A DNA stretch of 64,000 nucleotides from an uncultured Planctomycetaceae bacterium (lineage in GTDB: Bacteria > Planctomycetota > Planctomycetia > Planctomycetales > Planctomycetaceae): contig CAWFGE010000010.1 of the NCBI GenBank assembly GCA_963815195.1, positions 320,001 to 384,000 on the forward strand. Reading direction: 5' to 3'. The notes beneath the pieces are model-generated. The model worked only from the letters and a program-made list of their open reading frames with translations. It did no database searches and was not told the origin of the DNA. This document shows positions 22,888 to 37,969 of this stretch, piece after piece; the stretch's first letter is position 1; every line of letters starts with the position of its first letter. Made by a program: the position numbers and the translations under genes.

Positions 22888-23020
22888 TAGCGAGCGGCCA
22901 GCGTAAGCTGGCGGATTCGTTCCGATCGCCTGCATCGGCTTGCGACTTCAGAATTCCGTTAAGATAATTCGCGTGAAAATCGTTGAGGAACATCATGGGG
23001 CTTACGCCCCACGCTCGCCA
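22888..23020. repeat. REP-like doublet (GCGAGCGG..CGTAAGC family; also 8500-8522 and 37864-37969)
   Basis: tagcgagcggccagcgtaagctggc and inverted ggggcttacgccccacgctcgcc. Confidence 0.6.
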
Positions 23021-27636: not shown

Positions 27637-28843
27637 ATGAGCACCTTCCGACGGCCCGAAAGCGTCAGCGAGATTCTTTGCGAACTCATTTCCATCCCCA
27701 GCGTGAATCCGATGGGCCGCGATGTTTCGGGGCCGATCTATTTTGAAAGCCGGCTCAGCGATTGGCTGGTCGAGTTCCTCAAGTCTTTCGATGCAAAGCA
27801 TGAGCGAATCGAAGTGGTGCCCGGGCGGGACAACGTGATCGCGAGATATGATTCGCCCGGTGCCGAGTTGACGCTGCTTCTCGACGCCCATCAAGACACC
27901 GTGCCCGTGGAGGGCATGACGATCCCGCCGTTCGACCCGCAGGTCGAGGGCGGCAAAATCACCGGCCGGGGGGCGAGCGATGTCAAAGGCGGCCTGGCGG
28001 CGATGCTGTTCGCGTTTCGCCGGCTGGTGGAAGAGCAACCGCCCGGAGCGGCGAATGTCATCTTGAGCTGCACCTGTGATGAAGAATCCACCACGCTAGG
28101 GCTAACTCATCTCATCCAATGTTGGCAGGAGCCGGGCCGATCGCGGTTCGTCACGAAGCCGCCTGATGGCGCGGTCATCGCCGAGCCGACCGTCTTGGAC
28201 GTGGTCGTGGCCCATCGCGGGGCGACGCGATTGCGGATTCTCACGCACGGCCGAGCCTGCCATAGTTCCGATCCGTCCAAGGGCATCAATGCCATCTACC
28301 GCATGGCCCGCGTGTTGGAATGTCTCGAAGGCTATCACCACGCGCTGCGGGAAACAATCGAGCCACACCCGTTGTGCGGGGGGGCGACACTCAGCGTGGG
28401 CCGCATCACCGGCGGCACGAGCGTCAACATCGTCCCCGACGAGTGCGCCATCGAAGTGGACCGGCGGGTGATTCCCGGCGAAGACCATGCCCGCGTGCTC
28501 AAGGATCTGACGACCTATCTCACCAGCCGCTTGGACTTTGAGATCGAGTTCGAACCGCCCTGGCTCAACGGCCCCGCGCTCAAACAACGACAACAACGCC
28601 TGGCTCGCCGATCCGTTATTGGCTTGCATCGACAACGTCGCCGGTCCGCACCGGGCCGTCGGCGTCCCCTTCGGCACCCACGCCTCCCGCACCAGCGCCG
28701 CGGGCGTCCCGTCGGTTGTCTTCGGCCCCGGTTCCATCGAACAAGCCCACACCAAAGATGAGTTCATCGAGATCGAGCAACTCGAACAAGCCGCCGAGGT
28801 GTATTATCAATTCTGCGCCAACCCGCCGCAGAGGCCCGAATAA
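27637..28843 (+). CDS. M20 family metallopeptidase (ArgE/DapE-like); frameshift near 28580
   Basis: DAHQDTV, GRGASDVKGG, DEE, EPT, and FGPGSIEQAHTKDE in a shifted frame. Confidence 0.9.
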
Positions 28844-28877
28844 TCACGGCAGGGAATCTCCATGATTCAAACGGCGG

Positions 28878-28908
28878 GGTGGCATGCTCATGGCTTTGCA
28901 TGAGCATG
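28878..28908. repeat. REP-like palindrome (GGTGGCATGCTCA family)
   Basis: ggtgg catgctcatg gctttg catgagcatg. Confidence 0.6.
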
Positions 28909-29056
28909 GTTTCCACACGCAAAAATGAACTGAGCGGTTACACGTCTATGCAGATCTTTTTTCGATTCTTAGGAATGAACGTCTCACCAAATCGTTGAAG
29001 CTTGATCTGACAGACCAGACGGGTTTTGTGAAATCCACGTCGTTCGCCGCGGCCCG

Positions 29057-29230
29057 GTGAACGGGAGCGTTCGGAGTGAAGGAGATGAGGAGATCAGGGA
29101 AATAACCGCTGAAATCCGGGCGGAGTGGAGCGAAGAGGACAGACGTAGGCGCTGGTGGGGATCGCAAGAACGGGGAGAGTACGAAATCCCGCTGGTGAAA
29201 TGCAGCGTGGTGCGCGAGGGGGGATTTTGA
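29057..29230 (+). CDS. Putative microprotein (57 aa, GTG start), below the ORF-track cutoff
   Basis: EEIREITAEIRAEWSEEDRRRRWW amphipathic motif; start codon uncertain. Confidence 0.35.
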   Translation: MNGSVRSEGDEEIREITAEIRAEWSEEDRRRRWWGSQERGEYEIPLVKCSVVREGGF

Positions 29231-29360
29231 AGAGTGGAAAGACGTCGGTTTCTATGTATCGCCCCGGGATTGGCCGGGGCTTTTTCGTGCGCGGGGTTTT
29301 CCTGTCAAATACATGTCAAAATGGAATCGACCCGACGCGAAACCCTATAAAACAAGGGGT

Positions 29361-29422
29361 AAAAACAATAAACCCGGAAGTAGTGGGTCCCAGGGGGGCT
29401 AAGGACGCCGACTACTTCCGGG
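29361..29422 (-). terminator. Intrinsic terminator of the candidate sRNA
   Basis: cccggaagtagt/actacttccggg perfect 12-bp stem followed on the minus strand by tttattgttttt. Confidence 0.7.
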
Positions 29423-29648
29423 GGCGATTGGCGGGTTGTGATTGGGAAATGGCAACCGTCCGCATCCTTGCCGACGGCACCACCCCAACAATCTCAAGAC
29501 TTGAGATTGCCACTTTGGGGGAAAGATTCATCCGTTGAAGGGAAATCGGTTCGTCCTTGAACGTCATTCGGCGCCCGGGGGCGTCAACGGTGAATTCCTT
29601 CCTGGAAGTGGTTTCGTGATGTTCTCCCGAGGGTTGTTTGCCTCAGGC
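29361..29648 (-). ncRNA. Candidate CsrB/RsmZ-like small RNA (~290 nt)
   Basis: Promoter TTGACG-N17-TATCTT; four stem-loops presenting GGA; further hairpins; 12-bp terminator stem plus U-rich tail. Confidence 0.6.
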
Positions 29649-29655
29649 GGGCGGG

Positions 29656-29684
29656 AAGATATTGCTTTTGGCGATCACCGTCAA
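29656..29684 (-). promoter_or_regulatory. Sigma70-type promoter
   Basis: -35 TTGACG (29684-29679), 17-nt spacer, -10 TATCTT (29661-29656). Confidence 0.6.
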
Positions 29685-29993
29685 CCCGGAATTTCGACTT
29701 TTTCCGAACACGGGCCAGAAGGGGGGCACGTCAGCTTTTGCGTGCCAAGTCCGCGCCGCGGTGCTCTGCGACGACGGGCGACTCAAGTCCCACCTGCAAA
29801 CCCGCCCCGGCTGCCCCTTCACCCGACGCCCCCGGCCCGCTAAATTGACGCCAGAAAAAAACAAAAGCTGACGTGCCCCCCACCCGGCCGCTCCCGCGTC
29901 CGACCTGTCCAAAGGGGAGGTGAAATCCGTGGCTGATCATCACACAAAAAAGATCATCAGCGTCCGCCCCCGATTCGCCGGAAGAGGCGACTT

Positions 29994-30473
29994 TCAGTTT
30001 TTGGGTTTCTCTTTGAGCTTGCCGGGGTCGGTCGCGTAATTGATTGTCTGAAACCCCGCCGCCCGGCAGGCATCGTCCACGCGAATCACATCGCCCGCGG
30101 GCACGCGCCCGTCGATATCCAGGATGACCGGGCTGTCGGCGGACAGCTCGGCCAGGGATTTGAGCGCCTTTTCCAGCCGGTCCAAATCGGTGAACTCCGC
30201 CTCGTTCATTTCCACAACCGTCCGCCCCGCCGACTCGTTCCAATGGAGCTTGAGCCACACGTCCGTGACCCAGGGCGGCTTGTCCTTTTCCGGTTGGGGG
30301 TTCGCGGCTTCGATGTTGCCCGAAGACAGATCGACCGTCATTAAGGACTCGGCCATCACGCCTACCGAAGCGCACACGAAAAAGATCAATAGCAGAAACA
30401 CCACGTCGATCATCGGCGTCATCGCCTGATCGAACCGGGTTTCACGCCCATGTTGAAAGCTCGGCACGCGCAT
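29994..30473 (-). CDS. ExbD/TolR biopolymer transport protein
   Basis: MTPMIDVVFLLLIFF; PVILDIDGRVP. Confidence 0.9.
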   Translation of the reverse strand: MRVPSFQHGRETRFDQAMTPMIDVVFLLLIFFVCASVGVMAESLMTVDLSSGNIEAANPQPEKDKPPWVTDVWLKLHWNESAGRTVVEMNEAEFTDLDRLEKALKSLAELSADSPVILDIDGRVPAGDVIRVDDACRAAGFQTINYATDPGKLKEKPKN

Positions 30474-30479
30474 GGGAGG

Positions 30480-30895
30480 CTACGAATCCTTCAAAAACAC
30501 GGCAAACTTGAAAATCACGCCCGCGCGGCGCACGACAGCATCACCGGTTCGATCACGCGGAACGGGACCGTCTTGTCCGCCCGCACGTGGACCTCAAACC
30601 GCCCACCTTGCTCCACCTTCCCCGCCAGGATGAGCTGGTCGATCTGGGCATAGTCCACCGGTTCGCTGCGGATGCTCAACGATTGATCTTTGTGAATCGT
30701 GACCACGAGCGGCAGGGCTTTTTGGTTCTTTTCCTCTTTCTGCGTCGCCTCGGCCAGGTCGATTGCCTCGGCGTGCTCGCTCCGCACGAAATGGCTCGCC
30801 ACGAGAAAAAAGATGATCAGCAGAAACACCACGTCGATCATCGGCGTGATGTTGAACTGCAGACCACCGCGGCGTTCTCGCACGGGAATTTTCAT
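30480..30895 (-). CDS. ExbD/TolR protein; probable 1-nt indel near 30520
   Basis: NITPMIDVVFLLIIFFLV and VRADKTVPF; restoring the frame gives CARAGVIFKFAVFLKDS*. Confidence 0.88.
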
Positions 30896-30904
30896 GGTTT
30901 ATTC

Positions 30905-30941
30905 AGGGGCAAAGGCCACAGAGGAGCAAAGGCCACAAAGT
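30905..30941. repeat. Dispersed 37-bp repeat, copy 2
   Basis: aggggcaaaggccacagaggagcaaaggccacaaagt, 3 mismatches to 19254-19290. Confidence 0.6.
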
Positions 30942-30986
30942 GGAAAGTTCTTTCATTATCGCCGGTTTGGTTCGGCTCCCCGCCGA

Positions 30987-31850
30987 CTAGGGCACATTGG
31001 CCGACTTCGTTTCCGGCGGGCGTTTCCGCTGGCCGGCGGCGGCTTTTTTGCGGAGGATCAGGTTTCGCTTGTAGTCCGCGAAGACGTGCTCGGCCAACAG
31101 CGAAGACTCCGCGACGAGTTCGTCGATGCGGTTGCGGAACATCGCAAACGCCCCGAGCGCCGGGACCGCGACCATCAGGCCCAACAGCGTGGTCACGAGG
31201 GCCGTCGAGATTTTCGGAGCGAGTTCGGAGACCTGCGGATTGGAGGAAAGTTGGAAGGTGTGGAAGGCTTGAATCATCCCCCACACCGTGCCCATCAGCC
31301 CCAGCATCGGAGCCAGCGTGCCGATGACGTTCAGAAACTCGATCTTGCGAAACAGCCGGGCGGACTGCTCGGTGGCGGCGTCTTCCATCGACTTTTCCAC
31401 GGCGGAGTAATCCAGTTCCGCCTCGCTGATCCCGCACGCGAGCACGTGCCCCAAAAAGCTCGGGTTCGCCTGGCAGACTTCCTCGGCTTCGCGGAACTGC
31501 CCCTGGAGGATCAGCCGGTGCACTTCCTCGGCGAGTCCGCCGGGCATGAGGGCCGCCCGGCGGATGCTCAAGAGATGCTCGACGATGAGCGCCACCATCG
31601 CCACGCTGAGGGCGATAATAATCATTCCCACCACGCCCCCGGCCCGAAACAGCGAGCGGATGTCCAAATCCTGTTTTTCGTCGCCGGCGGTCTCCTCGCT
31701 CGGTTCACTGTCGCTCGCGGCGGGTGTGCTCTCCGGGGGAGTCGGCCCATCGGACGCTTGTGCCCACGCATTTCGATGGAGGGCGAGGAGCAGCATTAAG
31801 GTGCTCAGGCAGACGAACACCCAGTAAGCCGAACGGAAAAAAAAGCGCAT
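30987..31850 (-). CDS. MotA/TolQ/ExbB proton channel protein
   Basis: IGTLAPMLGLMGTVWGMI and ISTALVTTLLGLMVAVP. Confidence 0.93.
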   Translation of the reverse strand: MRFFFRSAYWVFVCLSTLMLLLALHRNAWAQASDGPTPPESTPAASDSEPSEETAGDEKQDLDIRSLFRAGGVVGMIIIALSVAMVALIVEHLLSIRRAALMPGGLAEEVHRLILQGQFREAEEVCQANPSFLGHVLACGISEAELDYSAVEKSMEDAATEQSARLFRKIEFLNVIGTLAPMLGLMGTVWGMIQAFHTFQLSSNPQVSELAPKISTALVTTLLGLMVAVPALGAFAMFRNRIDELVAESSLLAEHVFADYKRNLILRKKAAAGQRKRPPETKSANVP

Positions 31851-31857
31851 AGAGTGC

Positions 31858-32931
31858 CTATGGTGTCTGGGAAGACTCGATCGATATGGACGAGGAAGGC
31901 GTGGATCTTAATGATTCGAGCATCTGCCGGGCATCCAGAGCGTAGGAGCTTCGCCCGTAGCGCTCGGCCACTTCGCGGTAGAGCATGACCGCTTCGGTTT
32001 GCTGGCCGATGGCTTTCAAAGACTCCGCGGCATCCAGGCACGCGAGGGCGGAGAGTTGATAATCGTGATCGAACACCAGCGGGACCCACAACAGCGAAGC
32101 GGCGGCCCGGTCGTATTGCCGGCGCTGCCGGCGGCCTTCGCCGATGACGAAATAGGCCCCGCCGCGAAGTTTCGGGGGCATGGCCCGGACCATGTCCTGC
32201 CAGCGGTCCAAAGTCTGGCTTTCGACCTTCCCGCTTTGCAGGTCGAGCCGCCAAAGCTGGGCAATCGCGAGATGCCGGATGCGGGGGTCGGCATTCGTGT
32301 GGAACTGGCGGAGATCGATCGCCGCCGAGCTTTGATACTTGGGATCAAACAGCAGCCCGCTCGCGGCCAAAAGCTTCGCGGCGGGCGTCTTTCGCTCTTG
32401 CCATTGGAGAGCCGCGGCTTTCAATTGCGCATCGGGCGGCGAGGTGGTCCACACGAGCGGGATGTGGTTGAAGTGCAGCGTCGTTTTGTCGCTGTCATAG
32501 ATCATCAAGAACCGCTCGCCCGCCTGGGCATAGTTGTTCTGCCGGAGCGCGCACTTCACGAGCATCGCGAGGATGTCCCGACGAACCCAGTCCCGCGGCT
32601 CCTGCTTCAAGGCTTCTTCAAACAATTTGACCGCTGCCTCGGTGTCGCCGGCGGCAAACTTCTCCAGCCCCTCGGCGTGGGCTTGCACTTGGGCCGTCTC
32701 GATCGAGATGACTTCCGACGAGGACTTGATGGTCGTCGGCCCCTCGTCCCGCGTCTGAAAGCGGATATATTCCCCGGTGTAGCTCAAGACGGTGCACACC
32801 ACGCGAACCCGGCTGCCGTTGTCCTCGTTGAGCAGCGTGACCTTATCCCGCGTCGTCTGCGCTTGAGCGGCTGGAGGCAGCCCGCCCCAAACCGCGAGTG
32901 TCGAACCGAATAGCAGAAGCGCAGATTTCAC
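31858..32931 (-). CDS. Secreted TPR-repeat protein
   Basis: Signal peptide and helical TPR-like repeats; start overlaps the upstream stop. Confidence 0.75.
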   Translation of the reverse strand: MKSALLLFGSTLAVWGGLPPAAQAQTTRDKVTLLNEDNGSRVRVVCTVLSYTGEYIRFQTRDEGPTTIKSSSEVISIETAQVQAHAEGLEKFAAGDTEAAVKLFEEALKQEPRDWVRRDILAMLVKCALRQNNYAQAGERFLMIYDSDKTTLHFNHIPLVWTTSPPDAQLKAAALQWQERKTPAAKLLAASGLLFDPKYQSSAAIDLRQFHTNADPRIRHLAIAQLWRLDLQSGKVESQTLDRWQDMVRAMPPKLRGGAYFVIGEGRRQRRQYDRAAASLLWVPLVFDHDYQLSALACLDAAESLKAIGQQTEAVMLYREVAERYGRSSYALDARQMLESLRSTPSSSISIESSQTP

Positions 32932-34043
32932 GTTCCAGGGCTTTCGAGTTTCGAGATGTCCATGTAGGAATAGGTGCCGCGGTTTTCGCTCGCGAGTTGC
33001 TGGAGGAAGTTCTGAGCCGGCGTTTTCAGGTTCGGGCCTTCGCCGAACTGGATGCAGTTGATGTGTGTCTTATGGCCTTTGTTGTATTCCGCGCGGATCG
33101 TAAACAGGTCTCCCGCGGAGAGCCGGTCCTGGTCGGCGTCGGTGAGGAGGAAGATCACATCGGGTTTTAAGTCGAGCGCCGCTTGGAGAGCCGGCATATG
33201 CTTCGTCCCCCCGTTCGCCCCCAGGCTGTTGATAAAAAAGGCGGCCAGGTTGAGGTTCGGCCGCGTTGCGCGGTACAGCGAACTCGAAGTTCCCTTGTCG
33301 TTTCCCAAATGCATGACCTTGATGAGATGCGTGTAGGAGATGATTTGAAACTCTTGTTTCTGGTTCAAGCCGTTGATGCTTTGCATCAGCTTCTGCCGGG
33401 CGAAGCCGATGGCGTTGTTTGTGGACATGCTGCTCGACGTATCGATGACATACACCACCGTTTGCGCGGGCGAGGTCTGGCCCATAAAGCTGACGTCCCC
33501 CGGACCGTCGCCTTTGGCCGGGGGCGTATAAATCGAGTTGGCGGTGACGGTCGCTTCGCTGACGTCGGGCACACCCGAGGGCGGCGGCACCGCGGCGCTC
33601 TGGCCGATGACCGAGCGGGGTTTGACGTCGGGAAGATCGATCAGGTCCTTCGCAGCGGCGTCGGTTTCTTGCGTGGACGGGGCGGCGGACGACGTCGCGG
33701 CGGCCGTCTGGGACTGATTGTTTTGAAGCTCTTCGTCTTTTTGTTCTTCCGGGCGTTCGGGGGACGTGGTGGGTTCCTTGATGTAAATCCCGACCTCGCG
33801 GAAGTCGCCGTGGTCGGCCCCGGTGCCGATTTGCTCATCGCCGCAACTGGGTATGCCCGACGTCACCAGAAACACAATCACCGCCGCATGCAGCGTGCCC
33901 GAGAGCAACCAGCCCGGCACCGCGGCGAAGGACGACGGCCGGGCGGCATCGGGATTGGGGCGCGACTCCGCGGAGGCAGAATCGGCTGCGGGGGAAGGTG
34001 TGGGAGAGGTTGGCATGATGAAGCGGACGGGAAGAGAGGGCAC
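32928..34043 (-). CDS. Membrane-anchored vWA-like protein (start may be 34016)
   Basis: TM SGTLHAAVIVFL, Pro/Ala-rich linker, VYVIDTSSSM, GGT and IFLLTD. Confidence 0.8.
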   Translation of the reverse strand: MPSLPVRFIMPTSPTPSPAADSASAESRPNPDAARPSSFAAVPGWLLSGTLHAAVIVFLVTSGIPSCGDEQIGTGADHGDFREVGIYIKEPTTSPERPEEQKDEELQNNQSQTAAATSSAAPSTQETDAAAKDLIDLPDVKPRSVIGQSAAVPPPSGVPDVSEATVTANSIYTPPAKGDGPGDVSFMGQTSPAQTVVYVIDTSSSMSTNNAIGFARQKLMQSINGLNQKQEFQIISYTHLIKVMHLGNDKGTSSSLYRATRPNLNLAAFFINSLGANGGTKHMPALQAALDLKPDVIFLLTDADQDRLSAGDLFTIRAEYNKGHKTHINCIQFGEGPNLKTPAQNFLQQLASENRGTYSYMDISKLESPGT

Positions 34044-37865: not shown

Positions 37866-37969
37866 GGCGAGCGGGGGGTGTAAACCCCCTGGTTGGTTTG
37901 AACATTTAAGGATATTCGTTTGCTGGAGCACTCGTGAGTCATCTGCCGGCTTACACCGGCCGCTCGCCT
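37864..37969. repeat. REP-like doublet (GGCGAGCGG family)
   Basis: agggcgagcggggggtgtaaaccccct and inverted ccggcttacaccggccgctcgcct. Confidence 0.6.

What the first reader, a model, noticed from the sequence alone, without database searches (positions are those of the whole stretch)
29361..29684. Unannotated ~290-nt RNA with promoter, GGA hairpins and terminator: candidate CsrB/RsmZ-type sponge in a planctomycete
Seen on the minus strand: a promoter TTGACG-N17-TATCTT (predicted +1 about 29648). It is followed by four short stems with GGA in the loop: UUCC-AGGAA-GGAA (~29594-29606), GUUC-AAGGAC-GAAC (~29549-29562), UUCA-ACGGA-UGAA (~29527-29539) and CCGUCG-GCA-AGGA-UGC-GGACGG (29456-29477). 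There is also a long hairpin CCCCAA..CAAUCUCAAG/CUUGAGAUUG..UUGGGG, a C/A-rich linker, and a 12-bp terminator stem with a U-rich tail. Established: CsrA/RsmA binds A(N)GGA loops, and CsrB/RsmY/RsmZ are built from repeated hairpins of this kind. Inference: this RNA titrates CsrA. I know of no described Csr sRNA in Planctomycetota, although they encode CsrA homologs. Caveat: a 51-aa ORF (29567-29412) with no obvious RBS lies inside.
Basis: partly seen in the sequence, partly recalled or inferred. Interest (0 to 1): 0.85.

Follow-up and report, generated by a model that had tools for sequence, protein, structure and literature searches.

The report
Conserved planctomycete sRNA with CsrA hairpins
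This is a small non-coding RNA gene kept as a single copy in most genomes of one planctomycete family. It combines a hairpin that displays a run of six or more cytosines with, in most members, one to three hairpins of the shape the regulator protein CsrA binds best, so it is an undescribed RNA family and a candidate CsrA partner outside the proteobacteria.

Summary
The RNA gene is real by comparative evidence, but it is not a CsrB/RsmZ-type sponge. The promoter (29684-29656, minus strand), two of the four GGA hairpins (29562-29549 and 29477-29456), the long hairpin and the 3' hairpin with U-tail are present and conserved. The other two GGA hairpins are not conserved. The total of 9 GGA is not above chance.

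The "terminator" is the most conserved part. It consists of CCAAUCGCC plus a covarying 19-bp hairpin with an invariant C-run loop. It occurs as a single copy in 122 of 151 and 131 of 151 genomes sampled from the window's own family. It was found in 0 of 144 genomes from other families of the phylum. Every homolog has its own promoter. The distance from promoter to this module ranges from 15 to 383 nt.

Inserts of 107 nt or more nearly always (57 of 64) carry C-ANGGAN-G hexaloop hairpins, the published high-affinity CsrA form (88 on the sense strand, 2 on the antisense). Short forms carry none.

All family genomes sampled encode 4-18 CsrA paralogs, and FliW was not found in this one. Rfam gave no match.

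Best reading: a new sRNA family with a C-run effector hairpin and an accessory CsrA-binding module, working like McaS. No expression or binding data exist.

The parts
29656..29684 (-). Sigma-70-type promoter: -35 TTGACG (29684-29679), 17-nt spacer, -10 TATCTT (29661-29656).
   Evidence: It is identical in 4 of 4 same-genus sequences. A TTGACn-N16-18-TAnnnT promoter lies upstream of the module in 91 of 101 homologs.
29646..29655 (-). CCCGCCCGCC directly after the -10 box. It is either a G+C-rich discriminator (positions -6 to -1) with the first bases of the RNA, or the RNA's 5' end. The predicted +1 is near 29649-29648.
   Evidence: (U)CCCGCC-like sequence follows the -10 box in most homologs. 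The transcription start is inferred, not measured.
29361..29649 (-). Predicted transcript of about 290 nt.
   Evidence: Promoter-to-tail span. MFE -119.1 kcal/mol, z = -4.9. Full-length homologs at 76-83% identity in 3 of 3 same-genus genomes. The consensus fold has 14 pairs with compensatory changes.
29570..29585 (-). Short G+C hairpin GACGCC-CCCG-GGCGCC in the branched 5' domain.
   Evidence: The pair at columns 83/88 changes CG to UA in one same-genus sequence.
29549..29562 (-). ANGGAX hairpin A: GUUC-AAGGAC-GAAC, a hexaloop on a 4-bp stem. Candidate CsrA site.
   Evidence: Kept in 4 of 4 same-genus sequences, with loop A(A/C)GGA(C/G/A) and a U-A to U-G change in the stem. CANGGANG match at 29552-29559.
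29595..29607 (-). Not conserved.
   Evidence: Not conserved in the same-genus alignment. In the consensus fold this stretch pairs elsewhere.
29527..29539 (-). Not conserved.
   Evidence: The three same-genus homologs have no equivalent hairpin.
29483..29520 (-). Long hairpin with the CAAUCUCAAG/CUUGAGAUUG core.
   Evidence: The 9-bp core is kept in 4 of 4 same-genus sequences, with two A-U to G-U changes. It was not traced outside the genus.
29456..29477 (-). ANGGAX hairpin B: CCGUC-G-GC-AAGGAU-GC-G-GACGG, a hexaloop closed by C-G. This is the family-wide candidate CsrA site.
   Evidence: CANGGANG match at 29463-29470. Homologous hairpins occur in 57 of 64 homologs with inserts of 107 nt or more. 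Stem covariation: 74% of cells paired against 61% in shuffles, 0 of 500 shuffles as high.
29423..29431 (-). Conserved single-stranded CCAAUCGCC in front of the 3' hairpin. Candidate seed or protein contact.
   Evidence: AUCGC is invariant in 23 of 23 sequences. It is also kept in divergent members that were not selected by my text pattern.
29373..29422 (-). C-run hairpin: invariant base CCCGGAAG/CUUCCGGG, covarying upper stem, inner GUCC/GGAC stem, and loop UUAGCCCCCCUG (C-run at 29398-29393).
   Evidence: 19 pairs, 10 with compensatory changes in 23 sequences. In 100 sequences, 93.6% of cells are paired against 84.4% in shuffles, and 164 cells show a change on both sides against 56 expected, 0 of 500 shuffles as high. 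Covariance model R1 scores 92.3 bits here, and the next best place in the genome scores 21 bits.
29361..29372 (-). U-rich tail UUUAUUGUUUUU. Together with the hairpin it forms an intrinsic terminator.
   Evidence: A U-tail follows the hairpin in most homologs. In some genera a separate terminator hairpin follows instead.

Best explanation
The locus is a stand-alone gene for a regulatory small RNA of a previously undescribed family. The family is confined, as far as sampled, to the window's own planctomycete family (public titles: Pirellulaceae/Pirellulales).

The RNA is modular:
- The core is the constant 3' part: single-stranded CCAAUCGCC plus a long hairpin that displays a run of 6-9 cytosines in its loop. 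In this genome that hairpin also terminates transcription. I infer that the core is the effector. It probably pairs with G-rich stretches of target mRNAs, helped by Hfq. Less probably it binds an unknown protein.
- Between promoter and core lies a variable insert. In this genome and most others it carries one to three C-ANGGAN-G hexaloop hairpins, which I infer bind a CsrA dimer.

The RNA would therefore work like E. coli McaS, a base-pairing sRNA that also binds CsrA. It would tie its own activity or stability to CsrA, or withdraw some CsrA, but it would not soak up many dimers as CsrB or RsmZ do.

Shown: the gene anatomy, conservation, covariation, copy number, motif form, and presence of CsrA and Hfq genes.
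Inferred: transcription, CsrA binding, base pairing, and targets.
For: Independent gene:
- A conserved promoter lies upstream in 91 of 101 homologs.
- The promoter is identical within the genus.
- The ORF is not conserved.
- The surrounding gene order is not kept, even within the genus.
- The downstream open frame is on the opposite strand in 23 of 39 loci, so this is not a leader.

Core:
- The hairpin covaries.
- The C-run loop and AUCGCC are kept even in divergent members that I did not pick by pattern.
- It is a single copy here.
- It is present in 122 of 151 genomes and 76 of 92 genera, and in 131 of 151 genomes.
- In some genera a separate terminator follows the hairpin, so its conservation is not explained by termination alone.

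CsrA module:
- CANGGANG occurs 88 times on the sense strand and 2 on the antisense in 14,528 nt of inserts; chance expectation is about 3.5.
- 57 of 64 inserts of 107 nt or more have at least one.
- The stem covaries while the loop stays fixed.
- The form equals the high-affinity consensus of Duss 2014.
- CsrA is present in 151 of 151 family genomes, at 4-18 matches each, and gives 10 matches here.
- One paralog keeps the MLxLxR and VHREE motifs of E. coli CsrA, E = 7.7e-17.
- FliW was not found.

Other support:
- Hfq is present at 92.8 bits.
- McaS and GadY, with at least two GGA motifs, bind CsrA (review PMC7652899, passages seen).
- glgC, the classical CsrA target in E. coli (recalled, not from any call), is the only recurrent neighbour. 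It is adjacent in 16 of 101 loci and convergent in 15 of them.
Against: - There is no transcript evidence; no RNA run was listed.
- No target was found. Complements of the loop and of CCAAUCGCC occur in the genome at about chance frequency.
- CsrA binding is untested, and the RNA preference of planctomycete CsrA paralogs is unknown.
- GGA is not enriched overall in this RNA.
- Apart from the CANGGANG sites, the inserts hold about as many GGA on the sense strand as on the antisense (309 against 219 in total; 221 against 217 once the CANGGANG sites, 88 and 2, are taken off).
- 27 of 27 short-insert homologs, and 14 of 20 further members, lack the hairpin. The family's core role therefore does not need CsrA.
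- CsrA copy number does not visibly differ between genomes with short and long forms (read by eye).
- CANGGANG hairpins are not enriched genome-wide or in the window, so there is no independent sign of a CsrA regulon that uses this motif here.
- The set of 101 homologs was picked with a text pattern that required GCCCCCCU(A/G)G. Loop invariance in that set is therefore partly circular. One search is the unbiased check.
Confidence: 0.45

Rival explanations
1. Dedicated CsrA sponge. The RNA's main job would be to sequester CsrA through its GGA hairpins, as CsrB, RsmY and RsmZ do. The 3' hairpin would serve only for termination and stability.
For: - High-affinity-type ANGGAX hairpins are conserved.
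- There are many CsrA paralogs and no FliW.
- The promoter is strong-looking, with upstream A-tracts in several homologs (read by eye).
- glgC is a neighbour in 16 of 101 loci.
Against: - Only 2 sites are conserved here and 0-3 across the family.
- GGA is not enriched.
- Short forms without any site keep the promoter and the 3' module under strong conservation.
- The 3' loop sequence is invariant, far beyond what a terminator needs, and it sometimes has its own separate terminator behind it.
- No Rfam Csr/Rsm match.
- A stretch denser in GGA lies behind mraZ in the same genome.
Confidence: 0.2
2. A pure base-pairing sRNA of the C-rich-loop kind. On this reading the ANGGAN hairpins are not CsrA sites. 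They would be structural elements, Shine-Dalgarno mimics or second seeds.
For: - The C-run loop and CCAAUCGCC are the universal features.
- Hfq is present.
- There is a terminator with a U-tail.
- Short forms lack the hairpins.
Against: - The hairpin loop is fixed as C-A-N-G-G-A-N-G, with N free and the stem covarying. That fits protein recognition of GGA better than base pairing does.
- The match to the published CsrA optimum is exact.
- No G-rich target was found.
Confidence: 0.2
3. A protein-binding housekeeping RNA. The C-run hairpin would dock an unknown conserved protein, for example a KH-type poly-C binder, RNA polymerase or a ribosome factor. The insert would tune this.
For: - Single copy and family-wide.
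- The loop and stem base are invariant while the upper stem covaries.
- There is no conserved target complement.
- The sequence after the -10 box looks like a G+C-rich discriminator.
Against: - No candidate partner gene is linked to the locus.
- It is not 6S RNA or SRP RNA; both lie elsewhere in the genome.
- It was not found in 20-29 of 151 family genomes, including whole genera such as g80, 0 of 7. That would be odd for an essential RNA.
Confidence: 0.12
4. Not an RNA gene at all: a small protein gene, a DNA-level site, or a leader or terminator of a neighbouring gene.
For: - A 51-aa ORF (29567-29412) and a 127-aa antisense ORF (29155-29538) exist.
- glgC lies convergent in 15 of 101 loci.
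Against: - The ORF is broken or frame-shifted in 3 of 3 same-genus homologs.
- The antisense ORF matches elsewhere only over the 21 codons of the module.
- There are compensatory base changes and 1-nt indels.
- It has its own promoter in 91 of 101 homologs.
- The neighbours are not conserved.
Confidence: 0.03

Closest known systems
McaS (and GadY) of Escherichia coli: base-pairing sRNAs that also bind CsrA
   Same: A short RNA with its own promoter and terminator, a small number (two or more) of GGA motifs, and a separate region for another activity. [quoted passage not shown]
   Different: There is no sequence or structure homology (no Rfam match). Here the sites are perfect ANGGAX hexaloop hairpins. 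The phylum differs. Base pairing and CsrA binding are only inferred here.
CsrB/CsrC, RsmX/RsmY/RsmZ, RsmB: the Csr/Rsm sponge sRNAs of Gammaproteobacteria
   Same: A non-coding RNA with GGA in hairpin loops, an intrinsic terminator, and CsrA encoded in the genome.
   Different: Those sponges carry many GGA sites (numbers recalled, not from a call). This RNA has 2 conserved sites, the family has 0-3, and GGA is not enriched. No Rfam match. Its most conserved part has no counterpart in those RNAs.
6C RNA of Actinobacteria and RsaE/RoxS of Firmicutes (C-rich-loop sRNAs; names and properties recalled from memory)
   Same: A conserved hairpin loop with a run of six or more cytosines, which in those RNAs pairs with G-rich or Shine-Dalgarno regions. 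They are also widely conserved within one phylum-level group.
   Different: There is one C-run hairpin here rather than two. No match to any Rfam model. The flanking motif (CCAAUCGCC) differs. The lineage differs. The added ANGGAX hairpins are not a feature of those RNAs.
   Same: A planctomycete non-coding RNA candidate with GGA hairpin loops. In this genome the stretch behind mraZ also holds 7 GGA, including a GGCACGGAAGCC hairpin.
   Different: It is a different locus and sequence. It has no C-run hairpin. It is conserved in 3 of 3 same-genus genomes and was not detected in other genera by BLAST.

Membership tests
Csr/Rsm sponge sRNAs (CsrB, CsrC, RsmX, RsmY, RsmZ, RsmW in Rfam) | Match to a family covariance model | tested here: not met
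   Rfam 15 scan of the whole window at gathering scores gave 0 matches. A scan of 28800-30200 at E up to 10 also gave 0 matches.
Csr/Rsm sponge sRNAs | Many GGA motifs (well above chance), mostly in loops or single strands, so that several CsrA dimers bind | tested here: not met
   9 GGA against 6.8 +/- 1.8 in shuffles. Only 2 of the 4 proposed hairpins are conserved. The family carries 0-3 CANGGANG motifs per RNA.
Csr/Rsm sponge sRNAs | At least one high-affinity site: an ANGGAX hexaloop directly on a stem | tested here: met
   Sites at 29552-29559 and 29463-29470. The consensus is from PMC4005645. Conserved, with a covarying stem.
Csr/Rsm sponge sRNAs | CsrA encoded in the same genome | tested here: met
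   10 PF02599 matches, 9 above the cut-off. Present in 151 of 151 family genomes.
Csr/Rsm sponge sRNAs | Binds and antagonises CsrA in vivo or in vitro | not testable with these tools
   No RNA-protein binding tool is available. This needs EMSA or RIP-seq.
Csr/Rsm sponge sRNAs | Transcription driven by a GacA/UvrY-type response regulator through an upstream site | not tested
   Only A-tracts upstream of the -35 box were seen by eye.
Dual-function CsrA-binding base-pairing sRNAs (McaS type; a functional class, not a homology family) | At least two GGA motifs plus a separate seed region in a short terminated RNA | tested here: inconclusive
   Two ANGGAX hairpins and two conserved C-rich unpaired stretches are present. 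No target was identified.
6C RNA (Actinobacteria) / RsaE-RoxS (Firmicutes) | Match to the family model | tested here: not met
   No Rfam match at E up to 10.
6C RNA | Two hairpins, each with a loop of six or more cytosines (feature recalled from memory) | tested here: not met
   There is only one C-run loop, at 29398-29393.
6S RNA / bacterial SRP RNA | Being the genome's copy of that housekeeping RNA | tested here: not met
   6S RNA is at G000:C10:181837-182023 (48.9 bits). The SRP RNA candidate is at C5:27946-28042 (30.3 bits, below the cut-off).
Rhodopirellula-1 motif (Weinberg et al. 2010) | Sequence and structure of the published alignment | tested here: not met
   The supplement rows seen (AACAA..CGGAU..GAAC.., labelled cis-regulatory with a transposase overlap note) bear no likeness to this RNA. 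This was a comparison by eye only.

The most novel reading that the evidence does not exclude
This would be the first Csr-type regulatory RNA family outside the Proteobacteria: an ancient Pirellulaceae sRNA in which a high-affinity CsrA hairpin is fused to a C-run effector hairpin. CsrA occupancy would then gate the sRNA's action on G-rich targets, or the sRNA would set the free pool of one of the many CsrA paralogs. The family would have arisen next to glgC, the carbon-storage gene that CsrA is named for, and some lineages would later have lost the CsrA module.
Probability: 0.25. Interest if true: 0.8.

Novelty: new variant of a known kind. Interest (0 to 1): 0.62.

Why it matters
- Planctomycetes carry unusually many CsrA paralogs: 4-18 per genome here, and up to 15 reported in PMC13443453.
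- No antagonist, target or partner RNA is described for them in the papers I could search.
- FliW was not found in this genome.
- A family-wide, single-copy sRNA with textbook high-affinity CsrA hairpins gives a concrete and cheap entry point, such as EMSA, RIP-seq, or deletion in a cultured Pirellulaceae strain.
- Natural short forms without the hairpin allow the two modules to be separated by comparison.
- The C-run hairpin adds a further example of C-rich-loop sRNAs in a phylum where no sRNA biology is established.
- The covariance model built here could seed a curated RNA family.

Tried and rejected
- **RNA-seq.** No RNA holder was listed for 29340-29700, so expression could not be examined and read laying was not used.
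- **Rfam.** No match; ARAGORN found nothing.
- **6S or SRP identity.** Rejected.
- **Rhodopirellula-1 motif.** Unrelated.
- **Coding.** Rejected.
- **Conserved gene order with exbD or the M20 peptidase.** None.
- **Pfam scan of neighbours.** Covered 78 flanking frames from 39 loci. Only glgC recurs.
- **Relation between CsrA copy number and RNA form.** None is visible.
- **Target search.** I used exact and near-exact complements of the loop, CCAAUCGCC and the 5' end. Counts are near chance, and the only 16-mer match with 2 mismatches or fewer besides the gene itself is an unremarkable site.
- **Loop-loop pairing.** I considered pairing of the ANGGAN loops with GUCCUU of the 3' hairpin. The free N at loop position 2 gives no support (read by eye).
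- **Genome-wide CANGGANG hairpins.** Not enriched against control motifs, 88 against 56-106, nor in the window, 37 against 41 +/- 6.
- **Scan for clusters of GGA hairpins.** The top hit is a (GGGAGATT)n microsatellite, not an RNA sponge.
- **Promoter-plus-CCCGCC pattern.** Only 5 places in the genome, none before a tRNA.
- **Papers.** Dubey et al. 2005 (SELEX consensus) is not held, so I cite Duss 2014 instead.
- **Earlier scan notes by sequence.** None.
Full report
**Setting.** The finding lies in a 1.2-kb gap between convergent genes. On the minus strand an exbB-exbD-exbD cluster (30987-31850, 30515-30895, 29994-30473) ends at 29994. On the plus strand an M20 peptidase gene ends at 28761. 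Rfam 15 finds nothing in the window at gathering scores. It also finds nothing in 28800-30200 at E up to 10. ARAGORN finds no tRNA or tmRNA.

**Checking the observation.**
- promoter TTGACG-N17-TATCTT at 29684-29656, the only sigma-70-like site in 28500-30500;
- four short GGA stem-loops at 29607-29595, 29562-29549, 29539-29527 and 29477-29456;
- the long hairpin at 29520-29483;
- a 3' hairpin at 29422-29373 with a U-rich tail at 29372-29361.

The 296-nt stretch folds at -119.1 kcal/mol, z = -4.9. The RNA is not GGA-rich, however. It has 9 GGA against 6.8 +/- 1.8 in dinucleotide shuffles, and 162 of 1000 shuffles reach 9. What does stand out is two C-A-N-G-G-A-N-G motifs against 0.11 expected; 6 of 1000 shuffles reach 2.

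**Relatives within the genus.** A DNA search of 61 related genomes found full-length homologs in 3 of 3 genomes of the same genus, at 76-83% identity. In the four-way alignment the -35 box, the -10 box and the following CCCGCCCGCCUGA are identical. The hairpins at 29562-29549 (loop A(A/C)GGA(C/G/A)) and 29477-29456 (loop AAGGA(U/A)), the long hairpin core and the 3' hairpin are all kept. The hairpins at 29607-29595 and 29539-29527 are not kept. The consensus fold has 83 pairs, 14 of them with compensatory changes. The 51-aa ORF is not kept: two homologs have early stops and the third is frame-shifted. The antisense 127-aa ORF matches other genomes only over the 21 codons that overlap the 3' module.

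**The surprise: the 'terminator' is the family's hallmark.** Outside the genus, only window 29432-29367 matches, at 76-91% identity in 19 further genomes. That stretch is CCAAUCGCC, then a hairpin with an invariant base (CCCGGAAG/CUUCCGGG), a covarying upper stem, an inner GUCC/GGAC stem and the loop UUnGCCCCCCUG, then a U-tail.
- RNAalifold gives 19 pairs, 10 of them with compensatory changes.
- On 100 sequences aligned to model R1, 93.6% of cells pair against 84.4% in shuffles. 164 cells show a change on both sides against 56 expected, with 0 of 500 shuffles as high. Slid controls pair in 58% of cells or fewer. This alignment is fitted to the model, which favours the structure.

**Distribution of model R1** (model built):
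- One copy in this genome at 92.3 bits; the next best place scores 21 bits.
- 122 of 151 genomes and 76 of 92 genera in a sample of the same family.
- 131 of 151 genomes in the order-level sample, which consisted of that family only.
- Almost always one copy per genome; G099 has 4 and G080 has 3.
- Some genera lack it: g80 0 of 7; g3, g4 and g9 0 of 3 each.
- In a phylum-wide sample it matched G000 and 6 of 6 genomes of the family. It matched 0 of 144 genomes of other families, at E up to 1e-5 with the strict filters.
- One genome of a second family (G048, locus L031) has a clear homolog.

**Public contigs.** Of the 80 fetched, 58 pass R1. Their titles are Pirellulaceae, Pirellulales, Rubripirellula, Novipirellula, Pirellula, Bythopirellula, Lacipirellulaceae, Thermoguttaceae, loosely labelled 'Planctomycetaceae/Planctomycetales/Planctomycetia' metagenome bins, and two bins labelled Ca. 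Kuenenia. Contigs titled as other phyla fail R1. 6S RNA and an SRP RNA candidate lie elsewhere in the genome.

**Modular architecture.** I collected 101 distinct homologs. They were picked with a text pattern that required the GCCCCCCU(A/G)G loop, so loop invariance in this set is partly circular.
- 91 have a TTGACn-N16-18-TAnnnT promoter followed by (U)CCCGCC.
- The distance from the -10 box to CCAAUCGC runs from 15 to 383 nt without a gap in the distribution. The shortest RNAs would be about 80 nt.
- If transcription starts 7 nt after the -10 box, CCCGCC is a G+C-rich discriminator and not RNA. The start was not measured.
- This promoter-plus-CC(C/G)GCC pattern occurs only 5 times in the genome, and never before a tRNA.

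Twenty further, more divergent R1 hits were fetched by coordinates alone. They keep AUCGCC, the stem base and a loop C-run of 6-9 cytosines. The bases after the run vary. In four of them (L216, L221, L222, L230) the C-run hairpin has no U-tail and a separate terminator hairpin follows. The conservation of this hairpin is therefore not explained by termination.

**The GGA hairpins across the family.** In 14,528 nt of inserts, CANGGANG occurs 88 times on the sense strand and 2 times on the antisense. Chance expectation is about 3.5. 59 of the sense sites have at least 3 contiguous closing pairs.
- 57 of 64 inserts of 107 nt or more have one to three such sites.
- 0 of 27 inserts of 105 nt or less have any.
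- Among the 20 extra members, 6 have them, all with inserts of 174 nt or more.
- Total GGA in the inserts is 309 on the sense strand and 219 on the antisense. Once the CANGGANG sites are taken off (88 and 2), 221 and 217 remain, so there is no general GGA enrichment.

I aligned the hairpin nearest the 3' module from 54 homologs (ungapped; the loop is fixed by the way I selected them). The 9-bp stem pairs in 74% of cells against 61% in shuffles and 27-50% when slid. 8 of 9 pairs show changes on both sides, and 0 of 500 shuffles reach the covariation score. The consensus is CCGyyGGC-ANGGAN-GCyrGCGG.

Duss et al. 2014 (PMC4005645, passages seen) define the high-affinity CsrA/RsmE site as an ANGGAX hexaloop placed directly on a stem. 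In their reference RNA a C-G pair closes the loop. They state that occluded GGA binds poorly. The hairpins here have exactly that form. The GGA triplets inside the 3' hairpin are base-paired. The outgroup homolog L031 has a long insert with two CANGGANG sites. The CsrA-type module is therefore probably ancestral, and the short forms are reductions. That is an inference.

**Protein side.**
- The genome has 10 PF02599 (CsrA) matches, 9 above the cut-off.
- All 151 of 151 sampled family genomes have 4-18 matches.
- Five paralogs keep MLVLSR and VHR(E/S)E; three have VLR instead.
- One paralog aligns with E. coli CsrA (1Y00) over 56 residues, E = 7.7e-17.
- FliW (PF02623) was not found; the genome is 94.6% complete.
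- Hfq is present at 92.8 bits.
- CsrA copy number does not visibly separate genomes with short and long RNA forms.

**Literature.**
- PMC13443453 (passages) reports that CsrA is widely found in Planctomycetota, with up to 15 copies per genome. The passages seen do not name any planctomycete RNA antagonist.
- The review PMC7652899 (passages) places Csr-family sRNAs in many Gammaproteobacteria and FliW elsewhere. It notes that McaS and GadY, with at least two GGA motifs, bind CsrA.
- My searches found no paper that describes a planctomycete Csr sRNA. The library lacks most subscription journals.

**Context.** Gene order around the RNA is not kept, even within the genus. In 78 flanking frames from 39 loci, the only recurrent neighbour is glgC (NTP_transferase + Hexapep_GlmU + LbH_GLGC). 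By tblastn, glgC lies beside the RNA in 16 of 101 loci. It is convergent in 15 of them, with gaps of 10-576 nt, and upstream in tandem in one. Both short-form and long-form members are among these. In this genome glgC is elsewhere, at C6:43.5-44.7 kb. CsrA was discovered as a regulator of glycogen genes (recalled). The linkage is suggestive, but it may be plain ancestral gene order. The downstream open frame is on the opposite strand in 23 of 39 loci (a crude measure). A leader or riboswitch role is therefore unlikely.

**Targets.** Complements of the loop, of CCAAUCGCC and of the 5' end occur in the genome at about chance frequency, and none stands out. CANGGANG hairpins are not enriched genome-wide (88 against 56-106 for control motifs) or in the window (37 against 41 +/- 6). 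No RNA run was listed.

**A second candidate in the same genome.** I checked the same place here.
- The 226 nt after mraZ (G000:C13:1072592-1072817) hold 7 GGA, including a GGCACGGAAGCC hairpin.
- They end in a long terminator-like stem.
- They fold at z = -4.1.
- Bases 55-215 are kept in 3 of 3 same-genus genomes.

This stretch is denser in GGA than the RNA under study. It slightly lowers the odds that the present RNA is the main sponge. A crude genome scan for clusters of GGA hairpins gave only a microsatellite as its top hit.

**Verdict.** By conservation, covariation, its own promoter and lack of coding signal, this is a real non-coding RNA gene, although transcription itself is unmeasured. 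It belongs to a family I could not find in Rfam or in the searchable literature. The CsrA idea is half right. The RNA carries two conserved hairpins of the best-binding CsrA type, and the hairpin is an old feature of the family. The RNA is not a multi-site sponge. I read it as a modular sRNA that works like McaS: a C-rich-loop effector with an accessory CsrA-binding module (confidence 0.45). The rivals are a dedicated sponge (0.2), a pure base-pairing sRNA (0.2), an RNA for an unknown protein (0.12) and not an RNA at all (0.03).

Noticed in passing
G000:C13:1072592-1072817 (locus L194:1740-1965, + strand), outside the window: The 226 nt after mraZ hold 7 GGA, including a GGCACGGAAGCC hexaloop hairpin, and end in a long terminator-like stem. 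MFE -88.9 kcal/mol, z = -4.1. Bases 55-215 are kept in 3 of 3 same-genus genomes.
   Followed up: partly
Window 22999-23018 (-), 37867-37886 (+), 37948-37967 (-); at least 119 copies genome-wide (for example G000:C12:626583): A REP- or MITE-like repeat, GGCGAGCGGGGGGCGUAAGCCCCCUGGUU, forms a G6/C6 hairpin with GGGAGG/CCUCCC covariants. Copies often sit as inverted pairs roughly 80-150 nt apart. Its 3' arm resembles the sRNA loop UAGCCCCCCUGG. Whether the sRNA's C-run could pair with the G6 arms was not tested.
   Followed up: partly
L194:1740-1778 and about 38 other places in G000: A second short repeat, containing CCGGGGCGAGCGCCCUG, is present in dozens of copies in G000 and in G001.
   Followed up: no
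G000:C23:504625-504892 (locus L193): A (GGGAGATT)n microsatellite of about 17 units lies at the end of a long open frame. It was the top hit of my GGA-hairpin cluster scan and is an artefact for that purpose.
   Followed up: yes
Window 29261-29280 (+) and the unassigned stretch 28762-29360: A strong terminator-like hairpin, GCCCCGGGAUUGGCCGGGGC followed by UUUUU, lies on the plus strand 500 nt after the M20 peptidase stop. The 600 nt between that gene and the sRNA have no Pfam-matching ORF; the two tested there, the 73-aa ORF 28946-29167 (-) and the 127-aa ORF 29155-29538 (+), gave none. There may be another small gene or RNA here.
   Followed up: no
G000:C16:101489 (+), C16:155425 (-), C17:11043 (+): Three other promoters of the same TTGACn-N17-TAnnnT-CC(C/G)GCC type are each followed by a C/U-rich stretch such as CCUCUCUUUCC. 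They could start further small RNAs or leaders.
   Followed up: no
Loci L223-L226 (G099) and (G080): One genome holds four copies of the C-run module and another holds three. The G099 copies have a diverged stem base (CCCCCGGUCAAC...).
   Followed up: partly
Loci L216, L221, L222, L230: In these genera the C-run hairpin has no U-tail, and a separate G+C-rich terminator hairpin follows within about 15 nt.
   Followed up: partly
Window 29994-34043 (-): Upstream gene cluster: a VWA-domain protein, a TPR protein, ExbB, and two ExbD genes. It ends 310 nt before the sRNA promoter. It is not linked to the sRNA in other genomes.
   Followed up: yes
G000:C10:388099-388251 (+), about 4 kb beyond the window's end: One of the CsrA paralogs lies about 39 kb from the sRNA gene on the same contig. 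No linkage is implied.
   Followed up: no
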